Shown here one piece after another: positions 1-63,079 of a DNA stretch of 64,000 bases; the stretch's first letter is position 1; each line of letters begins with the position of its first letter. Made by a program: the position numbers and the translations under genes. The DNA is from Phascolarctobacterium sp. (GTDB taxonomy: Bacteria > Bacillota > Negativicutes > Acidaminococcales > Acidaminococcaceae). The stretch covers positions 2,073 through 66,072 of the forward strand of contig JAUNOC010000007.1 in the NCBI GenBank assembly GCA_030531205.1, read 5' to 3'. Under the pieces are notes generated by a model, which was given only the letters and a program-made list of their open reading frames with translations, did not search any database and was not told the origin of the DNA.

Positions 1-28
1 AAATTCTGAATCCTGATTTCTGATTCCT
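1..28 (-). repeat. Degenerate heptanucleotide-periodic tract (AAATTCT GAATCCT GATTTCT GATTCCT) directly downstream of the minus-strand CDS stop; cut by the window edge
   Basis: 7-nt periodicity read directly. The reverse complement AGGAATC AGAAATC AGGATTC matches the heptamer type at 32181-32285. Confidence 0.5.
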
Positions 29-667
29 TTATCCATGCATATAATTTTTAATAATACAGATTGGTGTTTTTTGGCTGTCGTTGCCAAAGGGGTTGTCAAT
101 CAAAATTTGTGCCACAAGAGCGGCATTCACTCCGGCACTGGTACCAAGTATATGACTGCGTTTTAAGTCGTTCACATCCGCAATGCAGGCACCGAAAGCA
201 CCGGTGGCGGTCTTAATTTTTTCGCTGACTCCCACAGGGTCAAAAGGCCCGGGCACAATGTGTTTGTCAAAGGGTGGCATGGTTCCCGTTACATCGTCAA
301 TCAGTCGTGCCTGATAGCCCGCTGTGCGATAGAACACACCGGCGATGCCAAGACATTTGGCAAGTGTGCCTAATATAACAGCAAAGAATACTCTTAACCC
401 GCCGCTGTAATTAATAAGGCACTGCATAGAGTAAGGACTGGAAATGCTGCCTTTGGCAGGAAAGAGGCGGCTGAGGAATTTCGCCAAAAGTGTTGGGTGC
501 AGGTAATCGCACCGCACTGCACTGCCTTGTGTAATAGCCACCACAGATTCTGCTACGCATACCACATCATTGGCGGTAATTTTATCGCCGCCATATTTTA
601 CAATGGCATTGGTAATGTCGTCATGATGCGTTAGGATAGGTGTTTTAATTGGAATAATGTCATACAT
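29..667 (-). CDS. F420-0:gamma-glutamyl ligase-like (CofE family) protein
   Basis: 212-aa ORF. The N-terminus (MYDIIPIKTPILTHHDDI) and overall pattern resemble CofE-like ligase family proteins. Family assigned from memory only. Confidence 0.6.
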   Translation of the reverse strand: MYDIIPIKTPILTHHDDITNAIVKYGGDKITANDVVCVAESVVAITQGSAVRCDYLHPTLLAKFLSRLFPAKGSISSPYSMQCLINYSGGLRVFFAVILGTLAKCLGIAGVFYRTAGYQARLIDDVTGTMPPFDKHIVPGPFDPVGVSEKIKTATGAFGACIADVNDLKRSHILGTSAGVNAALVAQILIDNPFGNDSQKTPICIIKNYMHG

Positions 668-21069: not shown

Positions 21070-22155
21070 ATGCTGACTAAAAATGTTGTAGAATTTTTAT
21101 ATTCCACCGCTTCTATGCAACGGTGGAACGACCATATCAGGGTGGACGGCTTCACAGAACTGGACAAGCAGGCACACAAGGCAATGATTCTTTATGTCTT
21201 GGGCAGACACGAAGAAGACGAAGGGACAAAACCTAACTGGCGGGTTTTGGTGGAAGGGCTTATCTTTGAATATATCCACCGTTCTTTTCTGACGGACATC
21301 AAGCCGCCAGTCTTTCACGAATTAGTGAGAGAGTGCAAAAGGGAACTGAATGATTGGGTTTATAAACAAGTTGACGAAAGAGTGCCCGACCTGGACAAGG
21401 GACTGCGAAGCCGTATGGAAGATTGGTTTGACAAAAGCGACAACCCGTTGGAAAAGCAGTTGGTGCGTGCCGCACACTATTTGGCAACCCAGTGGGAATT
21501 TGCGGTCATCTATCGTTTGAACGAGGGCCGTTACGGCATTGAGGAAACTAAAAAAGAAATAGAGTCAGAACTCTTAAACCACAAGAATTTGGCAGGCACA
21601 CGCCAAGTTGTTTTTGGCGGGCCCACCAAAAATTTTATTGATTTAGTCGGTCAACTGCGTTATCAAAAACGCTGGGCACAAAGCGAACGGCTGCCCAGCA
21701 CCAGCGTTTTAGGGCATAGTTTGATTGTCGCCATGTTTGGCTATATGTGCAATTTGCAGCGTGGCCGCAAGGATGCAGAAACATTGGAAGATTTTTGGCG
21801 TGGGCTGTTTCATGACTTGCCGGAAGTTTTGACCAGGGATATTGTCAGCCCGGTCAAGAAGAATGTGGCAGGATTGGATGAAGTAATAAGCAGGGTGGAG
21901 AATAAACTCATTAACGAAAAAATTTTACCGCTTTTGCCGGAACACTGGCGTAAGGATATGCTTCGCATCACGCAAGGATTTGATGCCGCATCGTTGATGA
22001 AAGCGTGTGACAATTTGGCTGCCTATATGGAAGTCAAACTCAGTCAGGAAAGCGGTGTTACCAGCAGGCATATGGAGGAAGCCGCCAAAGCGATGGAAAA
22101 GCAATATAAGGATAAAGTTATAGACGGAATTGACTTTGGGAAACTGTTTGTGTAA
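21070..22155 (+). CDS. HD-domain phosphohydrolase family protein
   Basis: 361 aa. ...LGHSLIVAMF... and ...FHDLPEVLTRDIVSPVK... resemble HD-superfamily metal-binding motifs. Specific function unknown. Confidence 0.6.
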   Translation: MLTKNVVEFLYSTASMQRWNDHIRVDGFTELDKQAHKAMILYVLGRHEEDEGTKPNWRVLVEGLIFEYIHRSFLTDIKPPVFHELVRECKRELNDWVYKQVDERVPDLDKGLRSRMEDWFDKSDNPLEKQLVRAAHYLATQWEFAVIYRLNEGRYGIEETKKEIESELLNHKNLAGTRQVVFGGPTKNFIDLVGQLRYQKRWAQSERLPSTSVLGHSLIVAMFGYMCNLQRGRKDAETLEDFWRGLFHDLPEVLTRDIVSPVKKNVAGLDEVISRVENKLINEKILPLLPEHWRKDMLRITQGFDAASLMKACDNLAAYMEVKLSQESGVTSRHMEEAAKAMEKQYKDKVIDGIDFGKLFV

Positions 22156-22187
22156 TTAGCAATTAGTAATGAGTAATTAGTAATTGT
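22153..22187. repeat. Heptamer tract TAATTAG CAATTAG TAATGAG TAATTAG TAATTGT, starting with the TAA stop of the upstream gene
   Basis: 7-nt periodicity read directly. An inverted counterpart lies at 22659-22680, and the same type recurs at 63983-64000. Confidence 0.7.
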
Positions 22188-22404
22188 GGTAAAATGTTCC
22201 GTTGATTAGATTTTTGGGTTTCAGGTGTGTGGAGTTTTGCAAACCCTCGTCCGCCCATAAAGGGGTAGACAGTCCGGTGGACTGTCGCCGAGAAATTTGG
22301 GCTTGTCCAGCGAGGTAAAAGACCGACACAGGTTTTAAGGTCGGTGGTGGGGTGAGCAATTATGCGGAGGATAATGAAAAGATAAAAAATTAAAGCTTAA
22401 AGTT
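22186..22404 (+). repeat. Partial element copy: TIR-like end plus conserved module Y
   Basis: GTGGTAAAATGTTCCGTTGATTAGA matches the family TIR. 22217-22368 aligns with 40316-40420 and part of 32326-32400. Confidence 0.7.
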
Positions 22405-22658
22405 ATGGTAAGATGTTCCTGAGATTATAGCAGGATAGTTAGTATAGCGCGAACTTAAGGCCCCTTGGTGAAGGGGCTGTCAGCGATAGGAACATAGGTG
22501 GCTGACTGAGGATTGGGAACTTCGCATTATGCGAAAGTATCGCTTTAATCTGCACCCCCAGTCGCCTTTCTATGTTCCTTTAGGCGCCAGCCCCCGCAAA
22601 GGCGGGGGCTACTCATGTTCCTGTAATCTGTAATATAATCATAGGAACATATCACCAT
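22405..22658 (+). mobile_element. Complete 254-bp TIR-bounded non-coding element (MITE-like), copy A2
   Basis: The left end ATGGTAAGATGTTCCTGAGATTATA matches the reverse complement of the right end, ATGGTGATATGTTCCTATGATTATA. Internal GC hairpins. No ORF with an SD. Confidence 0.75.
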
Positions 22659-22708
22659 AATTAGTCATTACTAATTCCCTTAACACCTGAAACCTGACAC
22701 CTGAAAAA
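22659..22708. repeat. Heptamer tracts flanking copy A2 on the right (AATTAGT CATTACT ...; CTGAAAC CTGACAC CTGAAAA)
   Basis: 7-nt periodicity. These are the reverse complements of the TAATTAG-type and AGGTNTC-type heptamers on the left side. Confidence 0.65.
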
Positions 22709-22730
22709 CTGTGCATAGCACAGTTTTTTG
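22704..22730. terminator. Bidirectional rho-independent terminator
   Basis: AAAAA CTGTGC ata GCACAG TTTTTT. Confidence 0.7.
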
Positions 22731-22790
22731 TTTCATAATTTACAGCGAAAAAAACTCTTATGTATACAATGAAAAATAGGGGTTTAAGTA

Positions 22791-22818
22791 TTGCATTTTT
22801 TGATTTTAGGACTATAAT
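22791..22818 (+). promoter_or_regulatory. gdh promoter
   Basis: TTGCAT, 16-nt spacer, TATAAT, about 35 nt upstream of the ATG. An AGGAGG SD follows. Confidence 0.5.
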
Positions 22819-22852
22819 TTATTAAGATAAAAAATCACTTAGGAGGATTATT

Positions 22853-24088
22853 ATGGATTTATTTGAGATGGCCAAAGTTCCTATGGCCGCTGCTGAAAAA
22901 GCAATGAACCTTGACCCCGGTGCTGCAGCAATCATTGCAGAGCCCGAGCGTGTTTTGGAAGTACATATTCCCGTAAGAATGGATGATGGTTCCCTGAAAG
23001 TATTTACCGGTTTCCGTGCCCAACACAGCACAGTGCTTGGCCCGGCAAAGGGCGGTGTACGTTATCACCCCTCAGTTTGTTTGGACGAAGTAAAAACCTT
23101 GAGTTTCTGGATGACCTGTAAATGCGCAGTTGCCGGCTTGCCCTATGGCGGCGGCAAAGGCGGTATTATCTGTGACCCGCAAAAAATGAGTCAAAGAGAA
23201 TTAGAGAGAATGACCCGTGGTTACATTGACCGTATTGCTCCCTGTATCGGCGAGAAATTGGATATTCCTGCCCCTGATATGAACACCAATGGTCAGGTAA
23301 TGGCGTGGATGATGGACGAATACAGCAAGATTAAAAACCAATATGAACCGGGCTTTATCACCGGCAAACCTTTGGGCATGGGCGGCTCTGAAGGCCGCAC
23401 TGCCGCTACCGGTTTGGGTGTAGTGGTTGCAGCAATGGAAGCAATGAAGGTTAAGAAAATTGACCCCAAGAAAGCAACCGTTGCCGTGCAAGGCTATGGT
23501 AATGTAGGCAGTTGGACTGCTAAACACTTTGCCAAGAGAGGTTGCAAAGTGGTGGCACTTTCCGATATCAAGGGCGGCATCTATAACCCTAAAGGATTTG
23601 ATATGAAGAAATTAGATGCTTACTATGAAAAGAAGAGAACATTACACGGCTTCCCCGGCGCTAAAGAAATCACCAATGCAGAACTCCTGGCATTGCCCGT
23701 AACCGTTTTGGCACCCTGTGCAATGGAATTGCAACTGACCAAAGACAATGCGGACAAAGTAAGGGCAAAGATGATTGTGGAAGGCGCTAACGGGCCTACC
23801 ACTCCGGATGCAGACAAGGTATTTGACAAGAAAGGTATTTTTGTAGTGCCTGATATTCTTGCCAACGGCGGCGGTGTAACCGTATCCTATTTTGAATGGG
23901 TGCAGAACCTGTACCGTTATTTCTGGACTGAAAAAGAAGTTGTAGAAAAACAGACCGAAATGATGAAACGGGCATTCAAGAATGTTTATGAAACATCCAA
24001 AAAATATAAAGTTAATATGCGTGTGGCCGCATATTGCGTAGCATTGAATGCAATGGCAATGCCGATGAAAATGCGTGGCATTTATTGA
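22853..24088 (+). CDS. gdh: Glutamate dehydrogenase (Glu/Leu/Phe/Val dehydrogenase family)
   Basis: 411 aa. KGGVRYHP and GLPYGGGKGG motifs, plus the GYGNVG dinucleotide-binding motif. Confidence 0.92.
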   Translation: MDLFEMAKVPMAAAEKAMNLDPGAAAIIAEPERVLEVHIPVRMDDGSLKVFTGFRAQHSTVLGPAKGGVRYHPSVCLDEVKTLSFWMTCKCAVAGLPYGGGKGGIICDPQKMSQRELERMTRGYIDRIAPCIGEKLDIPAPDMNTNGQVMAWMMDEYSKIKNQYEPGFITGKPLGMGGSEGRTAATGLGVVVAAMEAMKVKKIDPKKATVAVQGYGNVGSWTAKHFAKRGCKVVALSDIKGGIYNPKGFDMKKLDAYYEKKRTLHGFPGAKEITNAELLALPVTVLAPCAMELQLTKDNADKVRAKMIVEGANGPTTPDADKVFDKKGIFVVPDILANGGGVTVSYFEWVQNLYRYFWTEKEVVEKQTEMMKRAFKNVYETSKKYKVNMRVAAYCVALNAMAMPMKMRGIY

Positions 24089-24089
24089 T

Positions 24090-24120
24090 AAAAAAATCCG
24101 CCGAAAGGCGGATTTTTTGT
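24090..24120 (+). terminator. Rho-independent terminator after gdh
   Basis: AATCCGCC gaaa GGCGGATT followed by TTTTT. Confidence 0.85.
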
Positions 24121-24134
24121 TGCGGCGGTGCCAC

Positions 24135-24191
24135 AATGAAAAGTTAAAAGTTAAAAATGAAAAATTATGGTAGGATGTTCCTGTGATTATA
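24135..24191 (+). repeat. Heptamer tract (GAAAAGT TAAAAGT TAAAAAT GAAAAAT) plus a solo element TIR
   Basis: ATGGTAGGATGTTCCTGTGATTATA at 24167-24191 matches the family TIR. No core or second TIR follows. Confidence 0.7.
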
Positions 24192-24206
24192 TTTCAGAAT
24201 GTTTTA

Positions 24207-24215
24207 TGATATAAT
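24207..24215 (+). promoter_or_regulatory. Extended -10 promoter element TGATATAAT
   Basis: Fits the TGnTATAAT consensus, 44 nt upstream of the HAD-like CDS. The same 19-nt block recurs at 26001-26020. Confidence 0.45.
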
Positions 24216-24258
24216 ATTAAAATAACCATTCAAAAAATAATTAAGCGGAGTATAAGAA

Positions 24259-25329
24259 ATGAAAAATTTATTGTTGGCTTGTTTGACAGTTTTATATCTA
24301 TTGGCAAACACTTGTCCTGTTGTCCAGGCCATGTGTCGGGAAGACATAGCAAAGATAAATATCAGACGGGAAAAACATTTTAAGTATTGGACGGCGGATT
24401 CAAATGCTAAAAAAATTTTGGTTGAATATGTTAAGGATGTTGTTAATCCCAACAGCCAAAATTTTATCCCCGTGCCGGAGAGGATTGCGGTATTTGATTG
24501 TGACGGCACTTTGATTGGTGAGCGTAACCCTTACTATTTTGAAGGACTGATGCTTTTGTACCGTAATGCCGACCCCAATGTACCTCTAAAATGCAAAAAT
24601 GCAAAAGCAACGGCTCAAATAAGGTCAATAATTGACGGAGGTTCTATGCCGTCACAGGTGTGGCAGGAATTGGAACAGGCATATGTGGACTGTTTAGCGG
24701 GGCAGACACCTGAGGAGTACAGGGAATATGTACGGCATTATATAACTACCGAAAAGGTTGAAGGTTATTCCAATCTTAAAATTGGGGAAGAGTTCTTTTT
24801 GCCCATGGTTGAAATAGTATCTTATCTGCGGAATAACAAGTTTTCAATATATATTGTTACGGGGAGCGAGCGGGACGAAATGCGTGTTTATTGTGAACCG
24901 CTGAAGATACCCTATCAAAACATAATTGGCAGTGACCACAGCATTACAACGGAGAAAATGGGAAGTTCTGACAGCAGCAGATATTTTTATGGTGCTGCCG
25001 GAAATGAAAAAATAGTGCGTGGCAACGAACTGACTGCAAAAAATCTTAATTTCAACAAAATTATCGCCATGAACAGGGAGATTGGCATGCGTCCTGTGCT
25101 GGCATTTGGCAATGGCTCCGGTGATATGGGAATGTTCAATTATACGGTTATGAATAATAAGCACCGTACTTTGGCTTTTGCGGTGTTGTGCGATGACACG
25201 GAACGGGAAAACGGAAGTTTGAAAAGTGCGGAGAAGATGCGGAAGAATTGTGAAAAATATGGATGGATTCCCATTTCTATGAAAAATGACTTTGCCACTA
25301 TTTATGGCTATGATGTGAAAAAACTATAA
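24259..25329 (+). CDS. Secreted HAD-superfamily hydrolase (SerB-like phosphatase family)
   Basis: N-terminal signal-like segment MKNLLLACLTVLYLLANTCPVVQA. HAD motif I FDCDGTL and the C-terminal GNGSGDMGM motif. Confidence 0.7.
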   Translation: MKNLLLACLTVLYLLANTCPVVQAMCREDIAKINIRREKHFKYWTADSNAKKILVEYVKDVVNPNSQNFIPVPERIAVFDCDGTLIGERNPYYFEGLMLLYRNADPNVPLKCKNAKATAQIRSIIDGGSMPSQVWQELEQAYVDCLAGQTPEEYREYVRHYITTEKVEGYSNLKIGEEFFLPMVEIVSYLRNNKFSIYIVTGSERDEMRVYCEPLKIPYQNIIGSDHSITTEKMGSSDSSRYFYGAAGNEKIVRGNELTAKNLNFNKIIAMNREIGMRPVLAFGNGSGDMGMFNYTVMNNKHRTLAFAVLCDDTERENGSLKSAEKMRKNCEKYGWIPISMKNDFATIYGYDVKKL

Positions 25330-25359
25330 TTACTGCTCACTGCATTTTTCTGACGAGTA

Positions 25360-25419
25360 AAAATAAAAAAAGCGCCAAAATTATATACACTTGACCCTAA
25401 ATGTATATAATTTTGACGC
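25360..25419 (-). terminator. Minus-strand-oriented rho-independent terminator
   Basis: A 19-bp AT-rich stem (GCGCCAAAATTATATACAC / ATGTATATAATTTTGACGC, 2 mismatches). On the minus strand it is followed by TTTTTTTATTTTT. There is no T-run on the plus strand. Confidence 0.5.
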
Positions 25420-25458
25420 TAAAGCAAAAAGCAAAAGGAAAAAATTTTTACGTGATGT

Positions 25459-25499
25459 CCAATCTGATATCAGATTGGGGTAAGTCTGATATCAGATTG
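25459..25499. promoter_or_regulatory. Palindrome pair U1: a 20-bp perfect palindrome plus a 12-bp core copy
   Basis: CCAATCTGATATCAGATTGG (25459-25478) and TCTGATATCAGA (25485-25496). Confidence 0.6.
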
Positions 25500-25514
25500 A
25501 GCGTTAAAAAAATT

Positions 25515-25545
25515 AATTAGCACGCAAGTGCTAATTTTTATTTTC
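25515..25545. terminator. Bidirectional terminator-like hairpin
   Basis: AATTAGCAC gcaa GTGCTAATT, flanked by AAAAAAA upstream and TTTATTTT downstream. Confidence 0.6.
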
Positions 25546-25590
25546 TGATTGAAATCATAAAAATTATTTTGTGGCGAACGCCGAAGGCGA

Positions 25591-25606
25591 AATCTTATAT
25601 AAGATT
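25591..25606. promoter_or_regulatory. 16-bp perfect palindrome of the same motif class
   Basis: AATCTTATATAAGATT. Confidence 0.55.
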
Positions 25607-25653
25607 GAACATACACCGAAAGAAAAATTTTGTAAAACTTTTGGTGATAGCTG

Positions 25654-25691
25654 AATATCATATGAGATTGGGTGCAATCTCATATGATATT
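25654..25691. promoter_or_regulatory. Palindrome U2: 17-bp perfect inverted repeat with a 4-nt loop
   Basis: AATATCATATGAGATTG ggtg CAATCTCATATGATATT. Like U1, it is followed by RRCGTTAAAAAAAT. Confidence 0.6.
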
Positions 25692-25718
25692 GGACGTTAA
25701 AAAAATAAATGCCATGTT

Positions 25719-25818
25719 TGCCCTCTTGGTGAAGAGGGTGGATTGCCCATAGGAACATAGAAGGGCAAGACGGGTGATTGCTCACTGCGAAGTTCTCAAC
25801 CCCTTCACCAAGGGACCT
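25719..25818 (-). repeat. Core-only fragment of the element family (inverted relative to copy A2)
   Basis: CCCTCTTGGTGAAGAGGGTGGATTGCCCATAGGAACATAGAAGGGCAAGACGGGTGATTGC... aligns with 28704-28790 and with the reverse complement of 40525-40583. Confidence 0.7.
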
Positions 25819-25837
25819 TTCTTATTTTTTCTCTTAC

Positions 25838-25965
25838 TATGTATAATAGACATGAGAATGAATTTTATAACCAAAATGGCAGAAAAATTTTAATTTTCTT
25901 TATTATATATAATAGACACGAGTTTTGCTTTTGCAACCAAAATGGGAAAGAAAATCTCTAATTTC
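25838..25965 (+). repeat. Two tandem ~61-62-nt direct repeats, 66-bp period
   Basis: TATGTATAATAGACATGAG...AACCAAAATGGCAGAAAAATTTTAATTTTC compared with TATATATAATAGACACGAG...AACCAAAATGGGAAAGAAAATCTCTAATTTC. Confidence 0.6.
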
Positions 25966-26007
25966 ACGATTAAAGTATAGTTTCTGTTTCATTTGGTGTA
26001 GTTTTTA

Positions 26008-26016
26008 TGATATAAT
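26008..26016 (+). promoter_or_regulatory. Extended -10 promoter element TGATATAAT upstream of the DUF2075-like gene
   Basis: Fits the TGnTATAAT consensus. Embedded in GTTTTTATGATATAATATT, which is near-identical to 24201-24219. Confidence 0.45.
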
Positions 26017-26107
26017 ATTTATATCTATTCTCGCCCCCAGTCAGGGGAGGGGTTGTTTGCAGTTGTAAGTTAGATAAATGTGTAGAAAGGATATCTGCAT
26101 AAATATT

Positions 26108-28099
26108 ATGGCTAAATATACATTTGCAACCAAAGAAGGTAAGGCATATTATTACAATTCAATACCGGATTTTATTAAAGATGATGGTAATAGCATAATA
26201 GGGCAGTTAGTAGAACATTCTTTTCAAGTTGAAAAGGAGCAAACAGATGCTTGGAGTTATCAAATTACTGAATTGCAAACTCGTTTACAGGATGCAGGAG
26301 TGAGTGGCGATATCATTTTTGAATATGACATTGTACGTCTTGGTAAACGCATTGATGTCATTTTATTAATACGTCACATGGTATTTTCTATTGAGTTTAA
26401 AAACGGTAAGAATATTTTTACTGCGCAAGACGCTCAGCAAGCAGAAGACTATGCTTTAGATATTAAAAACTTTCATAAAGAGTCCGAAAATCTATATGTT
26501 TGCCCCATATTGGTAGCTACACATGCTCCTAAATATCATAAAGAGCAAGAACTTAAATGTTATACTGATAAACAAGTGTATTTGCAAAGGGAAAATATTG
26601 AGACATTAATACCTAAAGTAAATGAAGTGGCTAGTAAATATGGCGATGATGAAAAGATTGATTTTGAAAAGTGGTTTAATTCGCCATATTACCCAACACC
26701 GACTATTATTGCAGCAGCCGTTGAAGCATATAAAACCCATAATATTAGTGATATAGCAAAATCAGCTGCGGGACAAGCAAATATAGAAGCATGTGAAAAG
26801 GAAATTAATGACATTATTGAGTACGCTAAAAGTAATCATAAAAAATGTATTTGTTTTGTAACAGGTGTTCCTGGTGCAGGTAAAACGCTTGTTGGTTTAG
26901 ATGTAGTAGCAAAAAACCTTGATAAAGGCGAAAAAAATATGAGCGTTTATTTATCTGGTAATGGTCCATTAGTTGAAGTTTTACAAGAAGCACTTATTAA
27001 GAGTACGAAGATAAAAGGAACTACAAAACGCGAAACGCAAACGGCTGTATCAGCGTTAATTCAAGGAAGTTATGCATTCAAAAAAGCGCATGCTAATGAT
27101 GAAAATCCCATACCTGAAAATATCTTGATTTTTGATGAGGCACAACGTGTTTGGAATGTTCAAAAGATGGCATCTAAACACAAAACAGAAGGAATGGCTG
27201 TCAGTGAATCGTATTTATTTTATAAGATTATGGACAGAAAAAAGGACTGGGCAGTAATGATTTGTTTAGTAGGGCTCGGGCAAGATATTTATGATGGTGA
27301 AGTAGGCATTAATGAGTGGTTTAGATGTGGCATTAATGATTTTAAAGATTGGGAAATATTCTATTCGTCAGATATTTTTGATCAATTAGAAGATAAGAAC
27401 ATTGATAGACAAGCGATTGAAGGATGTAATAGATGTCATATTAAATTAGGATTACATTTAAAAACGTCTGTAAGGTCATTCCGTGCGGATAAGCAGAGTG
27501 CTTTTGTAGATAATTTGTTGGCAAATAATTTAGTAGATGCATCTAAACTATATGAACAAATAGTGCAGAAATATCCTTTATATATTACTCGTGATTATTC
27601 ATTGGCTAAATGGTGGGTACGTCAACAGGTTAGAGGTTCACAACGTTGTGGCGTTTTGGCAAGCAGTAGTGCACAGCGGTTAAAACCAGAGGGAATTTAT
27701 ATTCCTAAAGATATTGATGTTAAAAATTGGTTTTTAGCTCCAAGCACGGATTTGCGGTCGTCAAATAGATTGGAAGTAGTTGCAAGTGAGTTTGATGTAC
27801 AAGGATTAGAAATTGATTGGGGACTTGTATGTTGGGACGCTGATTTAAGACGTAAAGGTGATGATTGGGATTACTACAATTTTAGAGGAGCAAAATGGAC
27901 TAAACGAAACAAAATAGAAACGCAGCGCTATTTGTTAAATTCTTATCGTGTGTTATTAACACGTTCAAGACAAGGTATGGTAATTTTTGTTCCTAAGGGT
28001 GTAAATAAAGATGAGGATGAAACAAGAAACTATAAGTTTTATGATGGTATTTATAATTACTTGTTGTCATGTGGTATTAAAGAACTAAAGAAAAAGTGA
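26108..28099 (+). CDS. PD-(D/E)xK-like nuclease domain fused to a P-loop SF1-like ATPase (DUF2075 / Schlafen group-3 helicase-like)
   Basis: N-terminal ...EYDIVRLGKRIDVILLIRHMVFSIEFKNG...DYALDIKNFH. Walker A is GVPGAGKT and Walker B is ILIFDEAQ. The C-terminal YRVLLTRSRQGMVIF resembles helicase motif VI. Visibly AT-rich. An alternative ATG exists at 26078. Confidence 0.75.
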   Translation: MAKYTFATKEGKAYYYNSIPDFIKDDGNSIIGQLVEHSFQVEKEQTDAWSYQITELQTRLQDAGVSGDIIFEYDIVRLGKRIDVILLIRHMVFSIEFKNGKNIFTAQDAQQAEDYALDIKNFHKESENLYVCPILVATHAPKYHKEQELKCYTDKQVYLQRENIETLIPKVNEVASKYGDDEKIDFEKWFNSPYYPTPTIIAAAVEAYKTHNISDIAKSAAGQANIEACEKEINDIIEYAKSNHKKCICFVTGVPGAGKTLVGLDVVAKNLDKGEKNMSVYLSGNGPLVEVLQEALIKSTKIKGTTKRETQTAVSALIQGSYAFKKAHANDENPIPENILIFDEAQRVWNVQKMASKHKTEGMAVSESYLFYKIMDRKKDWAVMICLVGLGQDIYDGEVGINEWFRCGINDFKDWEIFYSSDIFDQLEDKNIDRQAIEGCNRCHIKLGLHLKTSVRSFRADKQSAFVDNLLANNLVDASKLYEQIVQKYPLYITRDYSLAKWWVRQQVRGSQRCGVLASSSAQRLKPEGIYIPKDIDVKNWFLAPSTDLRSSNRLEVVASEFDVQGLEIDWGLVCWDADLRRKGDDWDYYNFRGAKWTKRNKIETQRYLLNSYRVLLTRSRQGMVIFVPKGVNKDEDETRNYKFYDGIYNYLLSCGIKELKKK

Positions 28100-28161
28100 A
28101 TTGGTTTGTCCTTCCTTTAATGCGGGGGTTATAACAGGTGATATGTGGTTGTTTATTTTGG

Positions 28162-28201
28162 GGAAATTCCGTAATTTCCACGTGGAAATTACGGAATTTC
28201 C
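28162..28201. repeat. 40-bp perfect palindrome
   Basis: GGAAATTCCGTAATTTCCAC|GTGGAAATTACGGAATTTCC, verified base by base. Lies 62 nt after the DUF2075-like stop. Confidence 0.9.
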
Positions 28202-28399
28202 ATTTGTTGAAAAAAATTTAAAGGCGAGGTTTTTAACCTCCTATATATACAAGACGAAAAAATATTCAAATTGTAGATATTGTCAAAAAAAAAATTTTAA
28301 AAAAATTGTTATGTACCATATTTGACCCACTCCTTATGCTATCATAAACCCATAGCAAGAAGAGAGAACTCTTCATAAAATTTTAAGGAGGTGCGGAAA

Positions 28400-28591
28400 A
28401 TGTTGGAATGTCCACGCTGCGGCAGCAGCAAATTGGTTACGAAGAGTGACAAGCATAATTTTTGGTTGGGTACTGACAAACTGAAGATTAAAAAGGATTA
28501 TGGCTGGGGTATGGGAAATACCAGTGTGCCAGATGATAAGGTGGTTTGTCAGGAATGTGGTTATGTGTTCAAACCCGGATGGAGTAGGTAA
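28400..28591 (+). CDS. Small zinc-ribbon protein (63 aa)
   Basis: CPRCG ... CQECG (two CxxC pairs). AAGGAGG lies 8 nt upstream of the ATG at 28400. A strong terminator follows immediately. Confidence 0.6.
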   Translation: MLECPRCGSSKLVTKSDKHNFWLGTDKLKIKKDYGWGMGNTSVPDDKVVCQECGYVFKPGWSR

Positions 28592-28592
28592 C

Positions 28593-28620
28593 AAAAAAAA
28601 CGGCGAAAGCCGTTTTTTTG
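28593..28620 (+). terminator. Rho-independent terminator
   Basis: AAAAAAAA CGGC gaaa GCCG TTTTTTT. Confidence 0.8.
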
Positions 28621-28935
28621 TTAGTTAAAAGAGATAAGAGATGGTAAGAGGTATCAGGTGTCAGGTTTCAGGTTAGAGGGAAGTTAGCATCAAGCGGACT
28701 TTGCCCTCTTTGTAAAGAGGGTGGATTGCCTAAAGGAACATAGAAAGGCAAGACGGGTGATTGCATACTGCAAAGTTCTCAATCCTCAGTCGGCTACGCC
28801 GCCAGCTCCTTCACCAGGGAGCCAAAAGTTAGCAATATGGTGAACTTAAATAATTTCAATTACAGGAACATATTACCATCATTGTGAATTATGCATTTTG
28901 AATTGTGAATTACAATTGTGAATTATCAATAATAG
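28621..28935 (-). mobile_element. Degenerate element copy D: heptamer tract, inverted core, one TIR, heptamer tract
   Basis: AGGTATC AGGTGTC AGGTTTC AGGTTAG AGGGAAG (28649-28683). The core 28684-28850 aligns with the reverse complement of copy A2. The TIR ...CAGGAACATATTACCAT ends at 28879. ATTGTGA ATTATGC ATTTTGA ATTGTGA... spans 28881-28929. Confidence 0.65.
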
Positions 28936-28944
28936 TGGTATAAT
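28936..28944 (+). promoter_or_regulatory. Extended -10 promoter element TGGTATAAT for gatCAB
   Basis: Fits the TGnTATAAT consensus, about 30 nt upstream of gatC. Confidence 0.45.
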
Positions 28945-28975
28945 ATAAAAAAATATTCTAAAAAGGAGATTTGTG

Positions 28976-29260: not shown

Positions 29261-29271
29261 GGAGGGCTGCA

Positions 29272-32180: not shown

Positions 32181-32282
32181 TTCAGGTTTCAGGTATTAGG
32201 TGTCAGGTTAGAGGATAAAGGAATTAGGATTCAGGATTTAGGGGAAGGATAAGGCGTAGAGCGTAGGGCATAAGGCATAGGG
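32181..32282. repeat. About 15 consecutive degenerate heptamers (TTCAGGT-type) immediately after the gatB stop
   Basis: TTCAGGT TTCAGGT ATTAGGT GTCAGGT TAGAGGA TAAAGGA ATTAGGA TTCAGGA TTTAGGG GAAGGAT AAGGCGT AGAGCGT AGGGCAT AAGGCAT AGGGAAG. Confidence 0.75.
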
Positions 32283-32541
32283 AAGGTAAGATGTTCCTGT
32301 GATTATAGCAGGAAAGTTGGCAGAGTGCGAATTCTCGTCCGCCCATTGAGGGGCGGGGAACCGCCTATGGGAGCGTGTTGGCGGTGGTGGGGTGGCGACT
32401 GCATAGCGAAAGTATCGCTTTAATCGCCACCCTCAGTCAGTTGCTACGCAACTGCCAGCCCCCTCTAAGGGGGCACGAGAGTCAGCATTGTGCTAAATTT
32501 TAATCATTTTAATCATTTTAATCAAAGGAACATATCACCAT
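32283..32541 (+). mobile_element. Complete 259-bp TIR-bounded non-coding element, copy E
   Basis: The left end AAGGTAAGATGTTCCTGTGATTATA matches the reverse complement of the right end, ATGGTGATATGTTCCTTTGATTA. The core shares modules with copies A1, A2, F and G. Confidence 0.75.
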
Positions 32542-32583
32542 AATTTTTCATTTTTAACTTTTAATTTTTAATTTTTAATTGTT
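32542..32583. repeat. Heptamer tract CATTTTT AACTTTT AATTTTT AATTTTT AATTGTT
   Basis: 7-nt periodicity. It is the reverse complement of the tract type at 24138-24165. Confidence 0.65.
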
Positions 32584-32597
32584 AAAGGAACAGAAGT

Positions 32598-35054: not shown

Positions 35055-35077
35055 TTACAAAATTTTATATATTTTTC

Positions 35078-35106
35078 TTGCAATTATATAAATATTAGTA
35101 TAAAAT
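35078..35106 (+). promoter_or_regulatory. Promoter abutting the yigZ start
   Basis: TTGCAA (35078-35083), 17-nt spacer, TAAAAT (35101-35106). Confidence 0.5.
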
Positions 35107-35745: not shown

Positions 35746-35752
35746 GAGGAAT

Positions 35753-36724: not shown

Positions 36725-36747
36725 CATTAGGGTGAACTTTTATAAAC

Positions 36748-36786
36748 ATAATCACTGGAACTAATTACCATGATTTTTAATTTTTG
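36748..36786. repeat. Solo degenerate element TIR plus a short heptamer tract
   Basis: The reverse complement of 36748-36771 is ATGGTAATTAGTTCCAGTGATTAT, which matches the family TIR. It is followed by GATTTTT AATTTTT. Confidence 0.5.
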
Positions 36787-36816
36787 AAAGGGCTTCAATT
36801 TTGAAGCCCTTTTGTG
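36787..36816 (+). terminator. Rho-independent terminator after the M23 peptidase gene
   Basis: AAAGGGCTTCAA / TTGAAGCCCTTT hairpin followed by a T-rich run. Confidence 0.7.
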
Positions 36817-40314: not shown

Positions 40315-40447
40315 AGGTTTCAGGTGTGTGGGGGTTATGCGAACCCTTGTCCGCCACTAAAGGGGCGGGGGACCGTCTAAAGGAACATAGAAGGACGGTG
40401 GTGGGGTGAGCAATTACGCTGATGCTAATGAAAAGATAATTAAAGTT
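40315..40447 (+). repeat. Module Y copy plus the AT-rich left extension of the next element
   Basis: GGTTTCAGGTGTGTGG...GGTGGTGGGGTGAGCAATTACGC...TAATGAAAAGATAATTAAAGTT aligns with 22217-22404. Confidence 0.7.
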
Positions 40448-40641
40448 ACGGTAAGATGTTCCGGTGATTAGAACATTGGATATTGATGTGCTGGGTTCAT
40501 TAGTTCAGTTGGAGGGAGCGACCCACCCCGTCTTGCCCTTCTGTGTTCCTGTAGGCAATCCACCCCGCCCACGCCTGGGCGGGAAAATGCAGTTCGCAAT
40601 AAGCGTAGTTTTTTGTTTTTATCAATGGAACATATCACCAT
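40448..40641 (-). mobile_element. Complete 194-bp TIR-bounded non-coding element, copy F (core inverted relative to A2)
   Basis: The left end ACGGTAAGATGTTCCGGTGATTAGA matches the reverse complement of the right end, ATGGTGATATGTTCCATTGATAA. Confidence 0.7.
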
Positions 40642-40679
40642 AGTTTTAAGTTTTCCATTTTTAATTTTTAATTTATAAA
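40642..40679. repeat. AT-rich heptamer-like tract running up to the prmC ATG
   Basis: AGTTTTA AGTTTTC CATTTTT AATTTTT AATTTAT. Confidence 0.55.
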
Positions 40680-43938: not shown

Positions 43939-43971
43939 TAATGAAAAGCTAAAAACTTAAAACTTAAAGTT
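43939..43971. repeat. AT-rich heptamer tract (TAATGAA AAGCTAA AAACTTA AAACTTA AAGTT)
   Basis: 7-nt periodicity. Shares the TAATGAAAAG...TTAAAGTT pattern with 22372-22404 and 40426-40447. Confidence 0.6.
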
Positions 43972-44198
43972 GTGGTAATATGTTCCTGTGATTATATTAG
44001 ATTACCCCTTCATTTTGGGAGGGGAGGGCCGATACTGGAACGTGGACCGGCGGGGTGAGCGATTATGTAGTGACAAAGTTTTCGGAGTAATCTGCACCCC
44101 CAGTCGCAACCAAGTTCCGAAAAGCGACAGCCCCCGCAAGGGCGGGGGCTACTTATGTTCCTGTAACTTGTTATATAATCACCGGAACATTTTACCAT
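43972..44198 (+). mobile_element. Complete 227-bp TIR-bounded non-coding element, copy G
   Basis: The left end GTGGTAATATGTTCCTGTGATTATAT matches the reverse complement of the right end, ATGGTAAAATGTTCCGGTGATTATAT (about 26 nt). Confidence 0.75.
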
Positions 44199-44232
44199 CT
44201 TTCTTAATTATGAATTCTTAATTCATAATTGA
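44199..44232. repeat. Heptamer tract TTAATTA TGAATTC TTAATTC ATAATTG
   Basis: 7-nt periodicity read directly. Confidence 0.6.
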
Positions 44233-44241
44233 AATTGCCCA

Positions 44242-63022: not shown

Positions 63023-63079
63023 ATTTAGGTACCAGGTTTCAGGTGTCAGGTTATAGGGAAGAACAAGGGGTTATGGTTT
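63023..63079. repeat. Heptamer tract AGGTACC AGGTTTC AGGTGTC AGGTTAT AGGGAAG, continuing with GGTT-type heptamers to the next start codon
   Basis: Near-identical to 28649-28683. Begins just after the lpxD stop. Confidence 0.65.

What the first reader, a model, noticed from the sequence alone, without database searches (positions are those of the whole stretch)
22153..22708. Type locus of a dense, modular, TIR-bounded non-coding element family (at least 11 loci in 64 kb)
Four complete copies of 194-259 bp are bounded by ~25-nt terminal inverted repeats. They lie at 22405-22658, 32283-32541, 40448-40641 and 43972-44198.
- Left ends: ATGGTAAGATGTTCCTGAGATTATA, AAGGTAAGATGTTCCTGTGATTATA, ACGGTAAGATGTTCCGGTGATTAGA, GTGGTAATATGTTCCTGTGATTATA.
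- Reverse complements of the right ends: ATGGTGATATGTTCCTATGATTATA, ATGGTGATATGTTCCTTTGATTA, ATGGTGATATGTTCCATTGATAA, ATGGTAAAATGTTCCGGTGATTATA.
- Consensus: ATGGTRAKATGTTCCNKTGATTAKA.

Partial or solo pieces occur at 22186-22404, 24167-24191, 25719-25818 (core only, inverted), 28684-28879, 36748-36771 and 40316-40420. In the fullest copy (A2) the motif GGAACAT/ATGTTCC recurs five times, in both orientations, including inside the TIRs.

No copy contains an ORF with an SD, and no transposase is present in the window. Every copy sits just after the stop codon of an operon-terminal gene. TIRs plus shuffled hairpin modules recall MITE, BOX, BIME and Correia-type elements. I do not recognise this sequence as any named family.
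Basis: partly seen in the sequence, partly recalled or inferred. Interest (0 to 1): 0.8.

Follow-up and report, generated by a model that had tools for sequence, protein, structure and literature searches.

The report
Mosaic intergenic repeat family in Phascolarctobacterium
The flagged sequence is one copy of a real, very abundant, non-coding repeat family private to one group of uncultured gut Phascolarctobacterium bacteria; it resembles the REP/BIME and MITE repeats of other bacteria but has an unusual build, and the enzyme that spreads it is still unknown.

Summary
The 25-nt motif ("T", ATGGTRANATGTTCCNNTGATTANA) occurs 12 times in the window against 0 expected. It also occurs at least 364 times in 465 kb sampled from a related Acidaminococcaceae MAG, JAZLLX01.

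The "TIR-bounded MITE" reading is only partly right:
- T is a direct repeat as often as an inverted one. Only about 10% of T clusters are a simple inverted pair. The type locus is a "T> T> <T" composite spanning 22154-22705.
- Every T is preceded by about 32 nt with strict 7-nt periodicity. These tracts fall into about 11 discrete variants ("flavours") that assort independently of what follows T.
- The interiors are cassettes of G+C-rich hairpins. Their stems covary around conserved loops, some of which repeat the T core motif (ATGTTCC/GGAACAT).
- There are no target-site duplications and no transposase with matching ends. Rfam, the literature, plasmid, phage and JGI metagenome searches all found nothing.
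- Elements are strictly intergenic and polar with respect to gene and leading-strand direction. They differ structurally between strains of 98-99% identity.
- Relatives whose flanking HD-domain protein is 54-69% identical lack the family.

Best reading: a new BIME/REPIN-like mosaic repeat family that is mobilised in trans and reshuffled by recombination at T and by slippage in the heptamer tracts.

The parts
22154..22185 (+). Outer left arm of the type locus. Heptamer-periodic tract of flavour 1 (AATTAGC AATTAGT AATGAGT AATTAGT AATT), starting inside the stop codon of the HD-domain gene.
   Evidence: Read directly. Flavour 1 is one of 11 recurrent 32-nt variants; this cluster has 48 copies. 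Conspecific contigs L096/L097 carry flavour 6 here instead.
22186..22210 (+). T core copy 1 (GTGGTAAAATGTTCCGTTGATTAGA). It is in direct orientation to the next T.
22211..22372 (+). A-body. It opens with TTTTGGGTTTCAGGTGTG, carries G+C hairpins, and ends GGTGGTGGGGTGAGCAATTA.
   Evidence: BLAST hits of 88-93% identity to many JAZLLX01 copies. 91 A-body hits in the loci, 59 co-oriented with the leading strand against 20 opposite. Not significantly folded as a whole (z -1.0).
22373..22404 (+). Internal arm, flavour 3 (AATGAAAAGATAAAAAATTAAAGCTTAAAGTT).
   Evidence: This is the commonest flavour cluster, with 71 copies. It usually follows the A-body end.
22405..22429 (+). T core copy 2.
22430..22633 (.). 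B-body: a near-palindromic set of G+C hairpin cassettes. It holds GGAACAT at 22489 and ATGTTCC at 22572 and 22615, and the C-module AATCTGCACCCCCAGTCGC...GCCCCCGCAAAGGCGGGGGC.
   Evidence: Fold of 22405-22658 gives z -7.6 on the + strand and -8.7 on the - strand. Module copies are 87-97% identical to JAZLLX01 copies. C-module orientation is 42 leading to 2 lagging.
22634..22658 (-). T core copy 3, inverted (ATGGTGATATGTTCCTATGATTATA on the - strand).
22659..22705 (-). Outer right arm. Read on the - strand it is a CAGGT-type heptamer tract followed by flavour 1 (TTCAGGTGTCAGGTTTCAGGTG..AATTAGTAATGACTAATT).
   Evidence: Inverted repeats I6 and I23, read directly. The L099 orthologue has the same arm type.
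24135..24191 (+). Solo arm: flavour 4 (24135-24166) plus T (24167-24191), lying after the gdh terminator.
   Evidence: I1: 89% complementary to 32519-32573. Conspecific L098 has an extra [flavour 8 + degenerate T] unit here.
25717..25819 (+). Body-only fragment with no T. It holds a GGTG-loop hairpin, a hairpin with the AGGAACATAGAA loop, and an inverted GGTG-loop hairpin.
   Evidence: Repeat D6 is 90% identical to 28700-28785, plus I3 and I16. 95-98% identical to JAZLLX01 copies.
28644..28930 (.). Right-half element: CAGGT heptamer tract (28644-28687), body (28688-28854), T inverted (28855-28879), and an AATTGTG-type arm (28880 to about 28930) running into the gatC promoter region.
   Evidence: (D3, D6, D8). 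A promoter-like site at 28916-28944 overlaps the arm.
32181..32580 (.). Complete '+-' element after gatB. It consists of a CAGGT>AGGA>AGGG heptamer gradient (32181-32250), flavour 10 (32251-32282), T (32283-32307), body (32308-32516), T inverted (32517-32541) and a flavour 4 arm (32542-32580).
   Evidence: The JAZLLX01 orthologue L030 has a different module set. Conspecific L100 has flavour 5 in place of flavour 10, and different 9-mer and 7-mer copy numbers.
36725..36787 (-). Remnant: short body stub, degenerate T (36747-36771, 3 mismatches) and a short arm.
   Evidence: The orthologous site in L030 holds a 392-nt '++-' element. It is conserved, with one base difference in the 120 nt compared, in conspecific L100.
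40315..40678 (.). Composite between prfA and prmC. It consists of an A-body without its own T (40315-40426), flavour 3 (40427-40447), T (40448-40472), body (40473-40616), T inverted (40617-40641) and a flavour 4 arm (40642-40678).
   Evidence: the A-body is 91-95% identical to many copies. The orthologous site in the horse MAG contig L023 holds only an (AGGTGTC)n tract.
43940..44235 (.). Complete '+-' element: arm (43940-43971), T (43972-43996), body with the uninterrupted GGGGTGAGC...CACCCCCAGTC hairpin and C-module (43997-44173), T inverted (44174-44198), and arm (44199-44235).
   Evidence: (D5: 80% identical to 22574-22677).
63023..63057 (+). Heptamer tract only (TTTAGGT ACCAGGT TTCAGGT GTCAGGT TATAGGG), with no T.
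   Evidence: Repeat D8. The orthologous site in L079 carries flavour 2, T and a hairpin instead.
1..34 (-). Heptamer tract of the AGGA/CAGG type in reverse orientation, at the window edge.
   Evidence: Inverted repeat I8 pairs it with 32213-32241.

Best explanation
This is a lineage-specific family of non-coding, non-autonomous mosaic repeats, closest in kind to BIME/REPIN elements.

Building blocks:
- Arm: a purine-rich tract with strict 7-nt periodicity, in about 11 discrete 32-nt variants ("flavours"), running into a 25-nt conserved core, T.
- Body: a cassette set of G+C-rich hairpins. Stems vary by compensated changes while loops stay fixed, and several loops repeat the T core motif ATGTTCC/GGAACAT.
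- Assembly: one to several arms point inward across a body.

Shown here:
- The family fills about a quarter of the intergenic regions in carrier genomes.
- It is polar with respect to gene and leading-strand direction.
- It is absent from more distant Phascolarctobacterium.
- It changes structure between conspecific strains through arm swaps with break-points in or next to T, gain or loss of one [arm+T] unit, and heptamer copy-number slippage.

Inferred:
- Copies are made in trans by a single-copy or low-copy enzyme encoded elsewhere in the genome. That enzyme would recognise T and the hairpins, probably on single-stranded DNA, as RAYT does for REPINs.
- The 25-nt T then serves as the shared homology at which arms and bodies are recombined.
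- Any host-level role, such as hairpins in 3' UTRs or intra-operon spacers, is secondary and untested.
For: Dispersal and specificity:
- 12 hits in the window against 0 expected.
- 364 T copies in 465 kb of JAZLLX01, plus copies in three other Acidaminococcaceae MAGs.
- None in L108 or L109, relatives whose HD protein is 69% and 54% identical.
- Only chance singletons in IMG/VR and the JGI metagenomes.

Architecture:
- Close T pairs are ++71, --66, +-76 and -+10.
- Strand-neutral cluster types: solo 42, '++-' 29, '++' 23, '+-' 15.
- Lag-7 autocorrelation of the 35 nt 5' of T is 0.68, against 0.27 in random sequence. Eleven flavours cover about 336 of 394 arms.

T as a joint:
- Adjusted mutual information between flavour and downstream body is 0.07; between flavour and far-upstream sequence it is 0.37.
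- T positions 1-7 are linked to the flavour and position 24 to the body.
- Outer arms of an element match in flavour no more often than chance (6 observed, 8.4 expected).

Hairpins:
- The 11-nt loop core AGGAACA-AGAA is invariant. 6 of 7 stem pairs show changes on both sides.
- 87% of cells pair against 74% in shuffles, and the covariation score is 0.49 against 0.25 (0 of 500 shuffles reach it).
- GGTG and GGCG tetraloop hairpins have compensated stems.
- The 22405-22658 element folds with z -7.6 and -8.7 on the two strands.

Polarity:
- A-body 59:20 (p = 1e-5).
- C-module 42:2 (p = 1e-10).

Intergenic restriction: 8 of 390 T copies lie inside long ORFs. T-bearing intergenic regions have a median length of 570-850 nt, against 8-93 nt without T.

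Strain-level change at 98-99% identity.

No multi-copy IS in the sampled 0.7 Mb. The only repeats longer than 450 nt are autotransporter paralogues, two Rpn genes, and composite or tandem arrays of the family's own modules.

Module consensus is conserved across species. For example, 32382-32489 is 99% identical to a JAZLLX01 copy while flanking genes are 84-88% identical. This fits a persistent, vertically kept system, as described for REPIN-RAYT (abstracts listed).
Against: - No mobilising enzyme was identified. There is no RAYT or intact IS200-type gene in the DNA available, only a 41-aa TnpA stump at L059 7375-7500 that is unrelated in sequence to T.
- T itself is not a palindrome and lacks the GTAG/CGTC tag of REPs.
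- No clean filled-versus-empty site was found among close relatives, so transposition as such is not demonstrated. All the changes seen could come from recombination and slippage alone.
- Polarity cannot be assigned to replication rather than transcription, because gene strand and GC skew are confounded in 8-kb loci.
- The 7-nt periodicity of the arms is not explained by this model.
Confidence: 0.55

Rival explanations
1. Classical MITE. These would be deletion derivatives of a DDE-transposase IS or transposon whose terminal inverted repeats are T, moved by cut-and-paste. The multiple T copies per end would be multiple transposase-binding sites, as in Tn7, Mu or Tn402 ends.
For: - Convergent T pairs far outnumber divergent ones (76 against 10).
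- T copies within one side are direct and the two sides are inverted, like multi-site transposon ends.
- Copy number is high and location is intergenic.
Against: - No target-site duplication at any copy or orthologous site.
- The most conserved sequence is internal, and a variable 32-nt arm lies outside it.
- Strong orientation bias is unusual for DDE-transposase MITEs.
- No multi-copy transposase in 0.7 Mb, and none in the window.
- 29% of clusters are solo T.
Confidence: 0.15
2. Site-specific recombination cassettes. T would be the crossover site of a dedicated recombinase or nuclease, and [T + body + arm] units would be integrated, excised and inverted at T. This would be an integron- or shufflon-like system for non-coding cassettes.
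For: - The arm to the left of T goes with the upstream sequence, not with the body to the right of T.
- One [arm+T] unit is gained or lost between strains, and an arm plus the 5' part of T is swapped.
- Tandem ++ arrays reach five T copies.
- Rpn/YhgA-type recombination-promoting nuclease genes are present in the carrier genome.
Against: - The same linkage pattern is expected from ordinary homologous recombination or gene conversion at any conserved segment.
- T has no dyad symmetry like tyrosine-recombinase core sites.
- Bodies keep a strong orientation bias (42:2), so inversion at T is rare or counter-selected.
- No recombinase is consistently adjacent.
Confidence: 0.1
3. Primarily functional RNA or regulatory elements. 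Structured 3'-UTR or intra-operon modules (mRNA stabilisers, RNase sites, protein sponges binding the GGAACAU loop or the heptamer tracts) would be kept by selection, and the repetition would reflect function rather than mobility.
For: - Sense-orientation bias relative to flanking genes.
- Conserved loops on covarying stems.
- U-G closing pairs in 12 of 39 distinct hairpin variants on the GGAACAT strand.
- The consensus is more conserved between species than the flanking genes are.
- Elements start at stop codons: 49 of 112 begin within 3 nt.
Against: - The GGAACAT-loop module occurs in both orientations (17 against 11).
- T-arm mismatches show no G-U over A-C bias on the sense strand (59 against 42).
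- Elements are as frequent in divergent (promoter) regions as in co-directional or convergent ones (23%, 27% and 22%).
- Loci differ structurally between strains of one species, which argues against locus-specific function.
- No Rfam family matches.
- Abutting the stop codon is explained by the genome's tiny native spacers, with a median of 8 nt.
Confidence: 0.12
4. Assembly artefact, or a local duplication confined to this contig.
For: MAG assemblies can collapse or chimerise repeats. Logan contigs break inside the elements.
Against: - The type locus has the same architecture, module for module, in an independent ENA assembly (L098), and its right-hand part recurs in three independent Logan assemblies (L104-L106).
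- The family occurs at hundreds of different loci in other MAGs from other studies.
Confidence: 0.01

Closest known systems
BIMEs / REP (PU) clusters of enterobacteria
   Same: - High-copy and strictly extragenic.
- Mosaic combinations of a few short motif types with variable linkers.
- Found after genes and inside operons.
- Hairpin-forming.
- No transposase inside and no target duplication.

The REP/BIME properties cited are from the abstracts (PMC2817692).
   Different: - The repeated unit T is not a palindrome and has no GTAG/CGTC tag.
- T copies are as often direct as inverted, instead of regularly alternating.
- Each T carries a heptamer-periodic arm.
- The host is a Negativicute (Bacillota).
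- There is no sequence similarity.
REPIN-RAYT systems (Pseudomonas, enterobacteria)
   Same: - Inverted doublets that fold into long hairpins (z about -8).
- Non-autonomous, with hundreds of copies.
- Lineage-restricted, and the consensus persists across species.
- A presumed single-copy mobiliser encoded elsewhere.

REPIN-RAYT properties are from the abstracts (PMC3116915, RAREFAN preprint).
   Different: - No RAYT was found in the DNA available.
- Only about 10% of clusters are simple doublets.
- The arms of a doublet are 80% complementary and of different subtypes.
- The bodies are long (150-230 nt) and made of shuffled hairpin cassettes.
MITEs with modular bodies: pneumococcal BOX, Neisseria Correia (from my own knowledge of these families)
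   Same: - Short, non-coding, with terminal inverted sequences.
- A modular interior with variable numbers of modules (as in BOX).
- Located next to genes and co-transcribed with them.
   Different: - No TA or other target duplication.
- The conserved inverted sequence is subterminal.
- Strong orientation bias.
- No sequence similarity, and no hit in Rfam.
Heptanucleotide tandem repeats: cyanobacterial STRR and the TAACTGA repeats of Beggiatoaceae, Cyanobacteria and Bacteroidetes (PMC4679880)
   Same: - Intergenic tracts of 2 to about 10 tandem heptamers.
- Many loci per genome.
- Lineage-patchy distribution.
- Mechanism unknown.
   Different: - Here the tracts come in about 11 fixed 32-nt variants of mixed heptamers rather than one heptamer.
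- They always lead into the 25-nt T core.
- They abut stop codons rather than start codons.
IS200/IS605-derived miniature elements (PATEs) and their single-strand mechanism
   Same: - Hairpin-rich.
- No target duplication.
- Strong strand polarity. Lagging-strand targeting by IS200/IS605 elements is from the PMC6006769 abstract.
- An IS200 TnpA stump exists in a carrier genome.
   Different: - IS200/IS605 ends are not inverted repeats.
- The stump's flanking hairpin is unrelated to T.
- No conserved tetra- or pentanucleotide target was recognised.

Membership tests
MITE (miniature inverted-repeat transposable element) | Terminal inverted repeats at the element ends | tested here: inconclusive
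   Inverted T pairs exist, with 76 close +- pairs. However, only 15 of 144 clusters are a simple pair. T is also subterminal, with a variable 32-nt arm outside it.
MITE (miniature inverted-repeat transposable element) | Target-site duplication flanking each copy | tested here: not met
   No direct repeat flanks any window copy. None appears at orthologous or conspecific comparisons or at interrupted-versus-uninterrupted hairpins.
MITE (miniature inverted-repeat transposable element) | A related autonomous IS with the same ends | tested here: inconclusive
   None in the window and none in about 0.64 Mb of related loci. The only repeats longer than 450 nt are autotransporter paralogues, two Rpn genes, and composite or tandem arrays of the family's own modules. 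No complete genome was available.
REP / BIME | The unit is a 20-40 nt imperfect palindrome with a GTAG or CGTC tag (PMC3733652 abstract) | tested here: not met
   The T consensus ATGGTAAGATGTTCCTGTGATTATA has no internal dyad and no such tag (read directly).
REP / BIME | Extragenic, more than 100 copies, mosaic clusters with linker motifs | tested here: met
   8 of 390 T copies lie in long ORFs. At least 364 copies occur in 465 kb. Modules are shared combinatorially.
REP / BIME | Regular alternation of repeat orientation within clusters | tested here: not met
   ++ and -- neighbours (137) outnumber +- neighbours (76).
REPIN-RAYT | A RAYT (Y1 HUH transposase) gene, usually flanked by the repeats | tested here: inconclusive
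It found only a 41-aa IS200-type stump at L059 7375-7500, not flanked by T. Only part of any carrier genome was available.
REPIN-RAYT | Inverted doublet that folds into one long hairpin | tested here: met
   22405-22658 folds with z -7.6 and -8.7. This holds for the '+-' part only; the A-unit gives z -1.0.
IS200/IS605-derived element | Strand-polar insertion (lagging-strand template) | tested here: inconclusive
   Strong polarity is present: C-module 42:2 and A-body 59:20. Replication and transcription direction cannot be separated in these loci.
Heptanucleotide repeat tracts (STRR / TAACTGA type) | Tandem 7-nt periodic tracts in intergenic DNA | tested here: met
   Lag-7 identity is 0.68 and lag-14 is 0.65, against 0.27 in random sequence.
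Heptanucleotide repeat tracts (STRR / TAACTGA type) | One characteristic heptamer, placed just upstream of start codons (PMC4679880) | tested here: not met
   There are eleven mixed-heptamer variants. The tracts abut stop codons and always lead into T.
Any described RNA family (Rfam 15) | Covariance-model match | tested here: not met
   No hit at gathering thresholds in the window. Nothing relevant at E up to 1 across 22100-44300.
CRISPR array | Direct repeats separated by unique spacers | tested here: not met
   The sequences between T copies are themselves repeated tens of times, and T occurs in both orientations.

The most novel reading that the evidence does not exclude
T would be the recognition and crossover site of a dedicated, still unidentified enzyme: an HUH endonuclease, a recombinase or an Rpn-type nuclease. 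That enzyme would write and reshuffle non-coding hairpin cassettes and heptamer-periodic arms at gene ends across the genome. In effect this would be an integron- or shufflon-like cassette system for non-coding DNA, with the 7-nt periodicity as a footprint of the enzyme's mechanism.
Probability: 0.12. Interest if true: 0.85.

Novelty: new variant of a known kind. Interest (0 to 1): 0.55.

Why it matters
- **Genome structure.** One clade of uncultured gut Phascolarctobacterium has inflated about a quarter of its intergenic regions, from roughly 10-90 nt to roughly 570-850 nt, with a private repeat system.
- **A REP/BIME-like system in Bacillota.** As far as I know such systems are little known in this phylum. 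This one has features not described for REP, BOX or Correia elements: heptamer-phased arms in discrete variants, one 25-mer used both as a direct and as an inverted repeat, and hairpin loops that repeat the core motif.
- **Assembly quality.** The family breaks short-read assemblies. Every Logan contig of the species that reaches an element ends tens of bases into it. The one Logan contig that reads through an element site crosses only the degenerate solo T at 36747.
- **Strain typing.** The elements are hypervariable markers between strains of 98-99% identity.
- **An open question.** Some protein or enzyme presumably recognises ATGTTCC in duplex DNA and in hairpin loops, and it has not been found.

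Tried and rejected
- **Rfam:** gathering and E-value modes found nothing at the elements.
- **Literature string search:** searches for T sequences returned 0 papers.
- **Plasmid BLAST of the type locus:** no match.
- **Viral and JGI metagenome scans:** only chance singletons inside coding sequence, without heptamer arms.
- **Autonomous partner:**
  - The 1-kb multi-copy sequence turned out to be the autotransporter beta-domain.
  - ORFs flanked by T on both sides are housekeeping, toxin-antitoxin, Fic, Abi or AAA genes. Two are Rpn/YhgA-like genes whose shared sequence does not reach the T copies.
  - An HUH motif pattern search (regular expression) gave nothing.
- **T as a sigma-70 promoter:** the reverse complement of T starts with TATAAT, but no -35 sits at the right spacing (read directly; the scan shows no consistent promoter).
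- **Elements as intrinsic terminators:** none of the 21 terminator-like hits in the scan of 21900-41000 falls on a T core or heptamer arm, and only one weak hit (a 5-pair stem at 25801-25814) falls within an element.
- **Heptamer arms as three-frame stop signals:** weak. 39.5% have stops in all frames against 27.7% in shuffles, and two major flavours have none.
- **RNA-strand-specific pairing of the T arms:** no G-U over A-C bias.
- **Matching outer arms, meaning a longer TIR:** not above chance. The flavour-1 match at the type locus is coincidental.
- **Targeting of stop codons:** better explained by the genome's 8-nt native spacers.
- **A clean empty site or target duplication from nested copies:** not found.


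Full report
**1. The observation**

None is expected in 100 dinucleotide-preserving shuffles. All eight quoted end sequences are at the stated coordinates. GGAACAT/ATGTTCC occurs five times inside 22405-22658.

The quoted partial pieces are real members. Their 11-mers recur tens of times in a related genome. They give BLAST hits of 85-99% identity to many loci there.

Only short ORFs of 60 aa or less overlap the type locus. The neighbouring genes are housekeeping genes with no transposase domain: an HD-domain phosphohydrolase, gdh, gatCAB, a P-type ATPase, an M23 peptidase, trmB, metNI, prfA, prmC, sua5 and rpiB.

**2. Source and distribution**

The HD-domain protein upstream of the type locus matches at 100% identity a protein named by NCBI as from a Phascolarctobacterium sp. 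MAG. A Logan contig from run SRR24915793 is 100% identical to the window over 11 kb.

- 76 stretches from one MAG, Acidaminococcaceae JAZLLX01.
- 9 stretches from three other Acidaminococcaceae MAGs: JAZLMD01, JAKSOM01 from horse faeces, and Candidatus Phascolarctobacterium caballi JAGHTS01.
- 8 single hits in unrelated taxa.

Counting with up to 4 mismatches gives 364 T copies in 465 kb of JAZLLX01 and 12 in the 64-kb window. JAZLLX01 genes are 84-92% identical to the window, and the horse MAG about 75%.

Two more distant relatives have ordinary short intergenic regions, no T and no heptamer tract. Their HD proteins are 69% and 54% identical, and 12 kb and 21 kb of syntenic DNA were examined. 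In L109 the HD-gdh spacer is 144 nt, against 697 nt in the window.

IMG/VR gave one hit. The JGI metagenome collection gave 13 single hits, all inside coding sequence and without the flanking tract, so these are chance matches.

The family is therefore dispersed, abundant and restricted to one sub-clade of Phascolarctobacterium-like Negativicutes.

**3. Anatomy**

*T orientation.* T is not only a terminal inverted repeat. Among T neighbours within 450 nt, 71 are ++, 66 are --, 76 are +- and only 10 are -+. The 144 complete clusters break down as follows, counted without regard to strand:

| Cluster type | Count |
|---|---|
| solo T | 42 |
| ++- | 29 |
| ++ | 23 |
| +- | 15 |
| longer arrays, up to five T | the rest |

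The type locus is a '++-' composite. Its parts are:
- arm, 22154-22185
- T, 22186
- A-body
- arm, 22373-22404
- T, 22405
- B-body
- inverted T, 22634
- arm, 22659-22705

*Arms.* Every T is preceded on its 5' side by about 32 nt with strict 7-nt periodicity. Identity is 0.68 at lag 7 and 0.65 at lag 14, against 0.27 for random 35-mers. These arms fall into 11 discrete variants covering about 336 of 394 copies. Examples are AATGAGTAATTAGT..., AATGTCAAAGAACAAAGAGC..., AATGAAAAGATAAAAACTTAAAGCTTAAAGTT, AATGCGTAATGCGGAATTCGC... and GGGATTAGGAGTTAGAGGTTAGGG. Many arms are extended outward by a CAGGT>AGGA>AGGG heptamer gradient, as at 32181-32250 and, in reverse, 22677-22705.

*Bodies.* The bodies are cassettes of G+C-rich hairpins such as CCCCTT-GGTG-AAGGGG, CGCCCA-GGCG-TGGGCG and CCGCCC-ATAAAG-GGGCGG.

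One hairpin class keeps an invariant loop (AAAGGAACATAGAA) on at least four different, fully compensated stems. On an alignment of 39 distinct variants:
- 6 of 7 stem pairs show changes on both sides.
- 87% of cells pair, against 74% in shuffles.
- The covariation score is 0.49 against 0.25, reached by 0 of 500 shuffles.
- Versions with the 3' partners slid by one to three columns score 0.07-0.29.

The caveat is that these variants fall into a few discrete stem classes, so the number of independent events is small.

The loop carries the T core motif. The same motif, on the opposite strand, sits in the loops of the C-module.

*Folding.* The +- part of the type locus folds as one long imperfect hairpin on either strand (z -7.6 and -8.7). 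The A-unit does not (z -1.0).

**4. T is a joint**

The arm variant is almost independent of what follows T. Adjusted mutual information is 0.07 with the downstream body but 0.37 with the sequence further upstream. Within T, positions 1-7 are linked to the arm, position 24 to the body, and the centre to neither. The two outer arms of an element match no more often than chance, 6 observed against 8.4 expected. The flavour-1 match at the type locus is therefore a coincidence, not a longer TIR.

The two T copies of a +- pair are about 80% complementary. They show no excess of G-T over A-C mismatches on the sense strand (59 against 42). They therefore behave as two protein-recognition sites rather than as a selected RNA stem.

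**5. Location and polarity**

T lies inside long ORFs in only 8 of 390 cases.

| Intergenic type | Share carrying T | Median length with T (nt) | Median length without T (nt) |
|---|---|---|---|
| divergent | 23% | 635 | 93 |
| co-directional | 27% | 567 | 8 |
| convergent | 22% | 847 | 35 |

The repeats begin within 3 nt of the upstream stop codon in 49 of 112 cases and within 10 nt in 74. I attribute this to the very short native spacers rather than to targeting of stop codons.

Asymmetric modules are strongly oriented with the flanking genes and the G-rich (leading) strand:
- A-body 59:20, p = 1e-5.
- C-module 42:2, p = 1e-10.

Transcription and replication direction cannot be told apart in 8-kb loci. 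The nine C-modules lying between convergent or divergent genes are all co-oriented with the skew.

**6. Turnover**

Orthologous sites in JAZLLX01 and the horse MAG nearly always carry family sequence, but with a different module set:
- Window 36725-36787 is a stub where L030 has a 392-nt '++-' element.
- Window 40315-40678 is a 364-nt composite where L023 has only an (AGGTGTC)n tract.
- Window 63023-63057 is a bare heptamer tract where L079 has arm + T + hairpin.

I compared four element loci with contigs of the same species at 98-99% identity. Three of the four differ structurally:
- After the HD-gene stop codon, flavour 1 + GTGGTAAAATG is replaced by flavour 6 + ATGGTAAGATG in L096 and L097.
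- At 24167, L098 has one extra [flavour 8 + degenerate T] unit.
- At 32283, L100 has flavour 5 where the window has flavour 10. The break-points are at a shared GCGTA and inside T. L100 also has different copy numbers of a 9-mer and of the TTTTTAA heptamer at the right end.

L100 also has an unrelated 125 nt upstream of that element. This is either a real rearrangement or an assembly chimera.

Within JAZLLX01, copies are a median 79-83% identical, depending on length class. Individual modules in the window are up to 99% identical to JAZLLX01 copies although the flanking genes are 84-88% identical. The family consensus is therefore conserved across species.

**7. What it is not**

- No Rfam family matches, at gathering or relaxed thresholds.
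- No paper in the library contains the T sequences.
- There is no plasmid match.
- No target-site duplication is seen anywhere.
- No multi-copy insertion sequence occurs in about 0.64 Mb of T-rich DNA. The only repeats longer than 450 nt are autotransporter beta-domains, two Rpn/YhgA-like (PF04754) genes whose shared sequence stops short of the nearest T, and composite or tandem arrays of the family's own modules.
Its hairpin is unrelated to T.
- T as a promoter, the elements as intrinsic terminators, and the arms as three-frame stop signals all found little support.

**8. Interpretation**

The best-supported reading is a new, lineage-specific family of mosaic extragenic repeats of the BIME/REPIN kind.

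Demonstrated here:
- The family is real, dispersed and non-coding.
- It has a modular grammar of arm, T and hairpin cassettes.
- It is polar and hypervariable.

Also demonstrated is that arms and bodies re-assort at T and that the heptamer tracts slip.

Inferred:
- New copies are made in trans by an enzyme encoded elsewhere.
- That enzyme recognises T and the hairpins, probably on single-stranded DNA.

The points in favour of this inference are:
- the absence of target duplications;
- the absence of a multi-copy transposase;
- covarying stems with conserved loops;
- strand polarity;
- persistence of the consensus across species.

These are the properties described for REPIN-RAYT systems and for IS200/IS605-type single-strand transposition (abstracts listed).

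The points against are:
- T is not a palindrome and lacks the REP tag;
- no RAYT was found;
- no filled-versus-empty pair was caught, so transposition itself is not shown.

The rivals are not excluded, and section 7 gives the specific evidence against the first and third of them:
- a classical DDE-transposase MITE with several binding sites per end;
- a site-specific cassette system with T as the crossover site;
- a primarily RNA-level function.

The 7-nt periodicity and the discrete variants of the arms remain unexplained. The nearest known phenomena are the cyanobacterial STRR repeats and the TAACTGA heptamer repeats (PMC4679880), whose mechanism is also unknown.

**9. Verdict**

The finding is real and the family appears undescribed. 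It is a new variant of a known kind of element rather than a new category. Interest is moderate to good. It would rise sharply if T proves to be the site of a dedicated recombination or copying enzyme.

Noticed in passing
window 24200-28100: A low-GC island (0.34-0.37, against about 0.44 elsewhere). It holds an unknown 356-aa ORF at 24259-25329 with no Pfam or PADLOC hit, and a 673-aa Schlafen-like helicase at 26078-28099. The helicase matches the PADLOC candidate defence protein PDC-S41 at E = 5e-238. This is probably an acquired defence island.
   Followed up: partly
window 25330-26077: The long spacer upstream of the PDC-S41 gene has its own repeats. There are two copies of a double palindrome (AATCTGATATCAGATT...GTCTGATATCAGATT) at 25461-25517 and 25654-25710. 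There are also two 54-nt direct repeats at 25834-25887 and 25900-25953. They are unrelated to the T family.
   Followed up: no
window 28162-28201: A perfect 40-nt palindrome, GGAAATTCCGTAATTTCCAC|GTGGAAATTACGGAATTTCC, just after the helicase gene. It gives a weak sub-threshold Rfam 'gyrA RNA' hit on the opposite strand (28.9 bits against a gathering score of 45, E = 0.0015).
   Followed up: no
window 28400-28591: A small 63-aa zinc-ribbon ORF with its own Shine-Dalgarno sequence and terminator, lying between the defence island and the 28644 element.
   Followed up: no
window 54485-54751: A 24-nt periodic coding repeat rich in Glu, Lys and Ala (EEEAKRKAE-like), inside a 577-aa ORF at 54116-55849.
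   Followed up: no
L100 5364-6871 (corresponds to window 37468-37510): A conspecific strain (ENA ERZ27247217) carries a 1.5-kb insertion of three small genes (HTH_3, DUF6036 and an 89-aa ORF) between trmB and metN. The window has a 43-nt spacer there.
   Followed up: partly
L100 1-125 (compare window 32100-32240): The same contig has an unrelated sequence, the start of a divergent ORF, upstream of the 32283 element where the window has the gatB 3' end. This is either a rearrangement at the element or an assembly chimera.
   Followed up: partly
L094-L097, L101, L102, L104-L106 (Logan contigs of the species): Every end of these short-read contigs that reaches an element stops there, tens of bases in; the ends next to the HD gene stop about 35-40 nt into the element. 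The repeats therefore fragment assemblies of this lineage.
   Followed up: yes
L024 1515-2465 (-) and L034 6843-7757 (+): Two paralogous Rpn/YhgA-like (PF04754) putative recombination-promoting nuclease genes in JAZLLX01, each lying between T elements. The association may simply reflect the density of T.
   Followed up: partly
L059 7260-7500: A 41-aa stump of an IS200-type TnpA with its upstream hairpin, next to a RelB/ParE-like gene pair in JAZLLX01.
   Followed up: partly
window 28916-28944: The best promoter-like site upstream of gatC takes its -35 (TTGTGA) from the AATTGTG heptamer arm of the 28855 element. Arms may sometimes contribute promoter hexamers.
   Followed up: no
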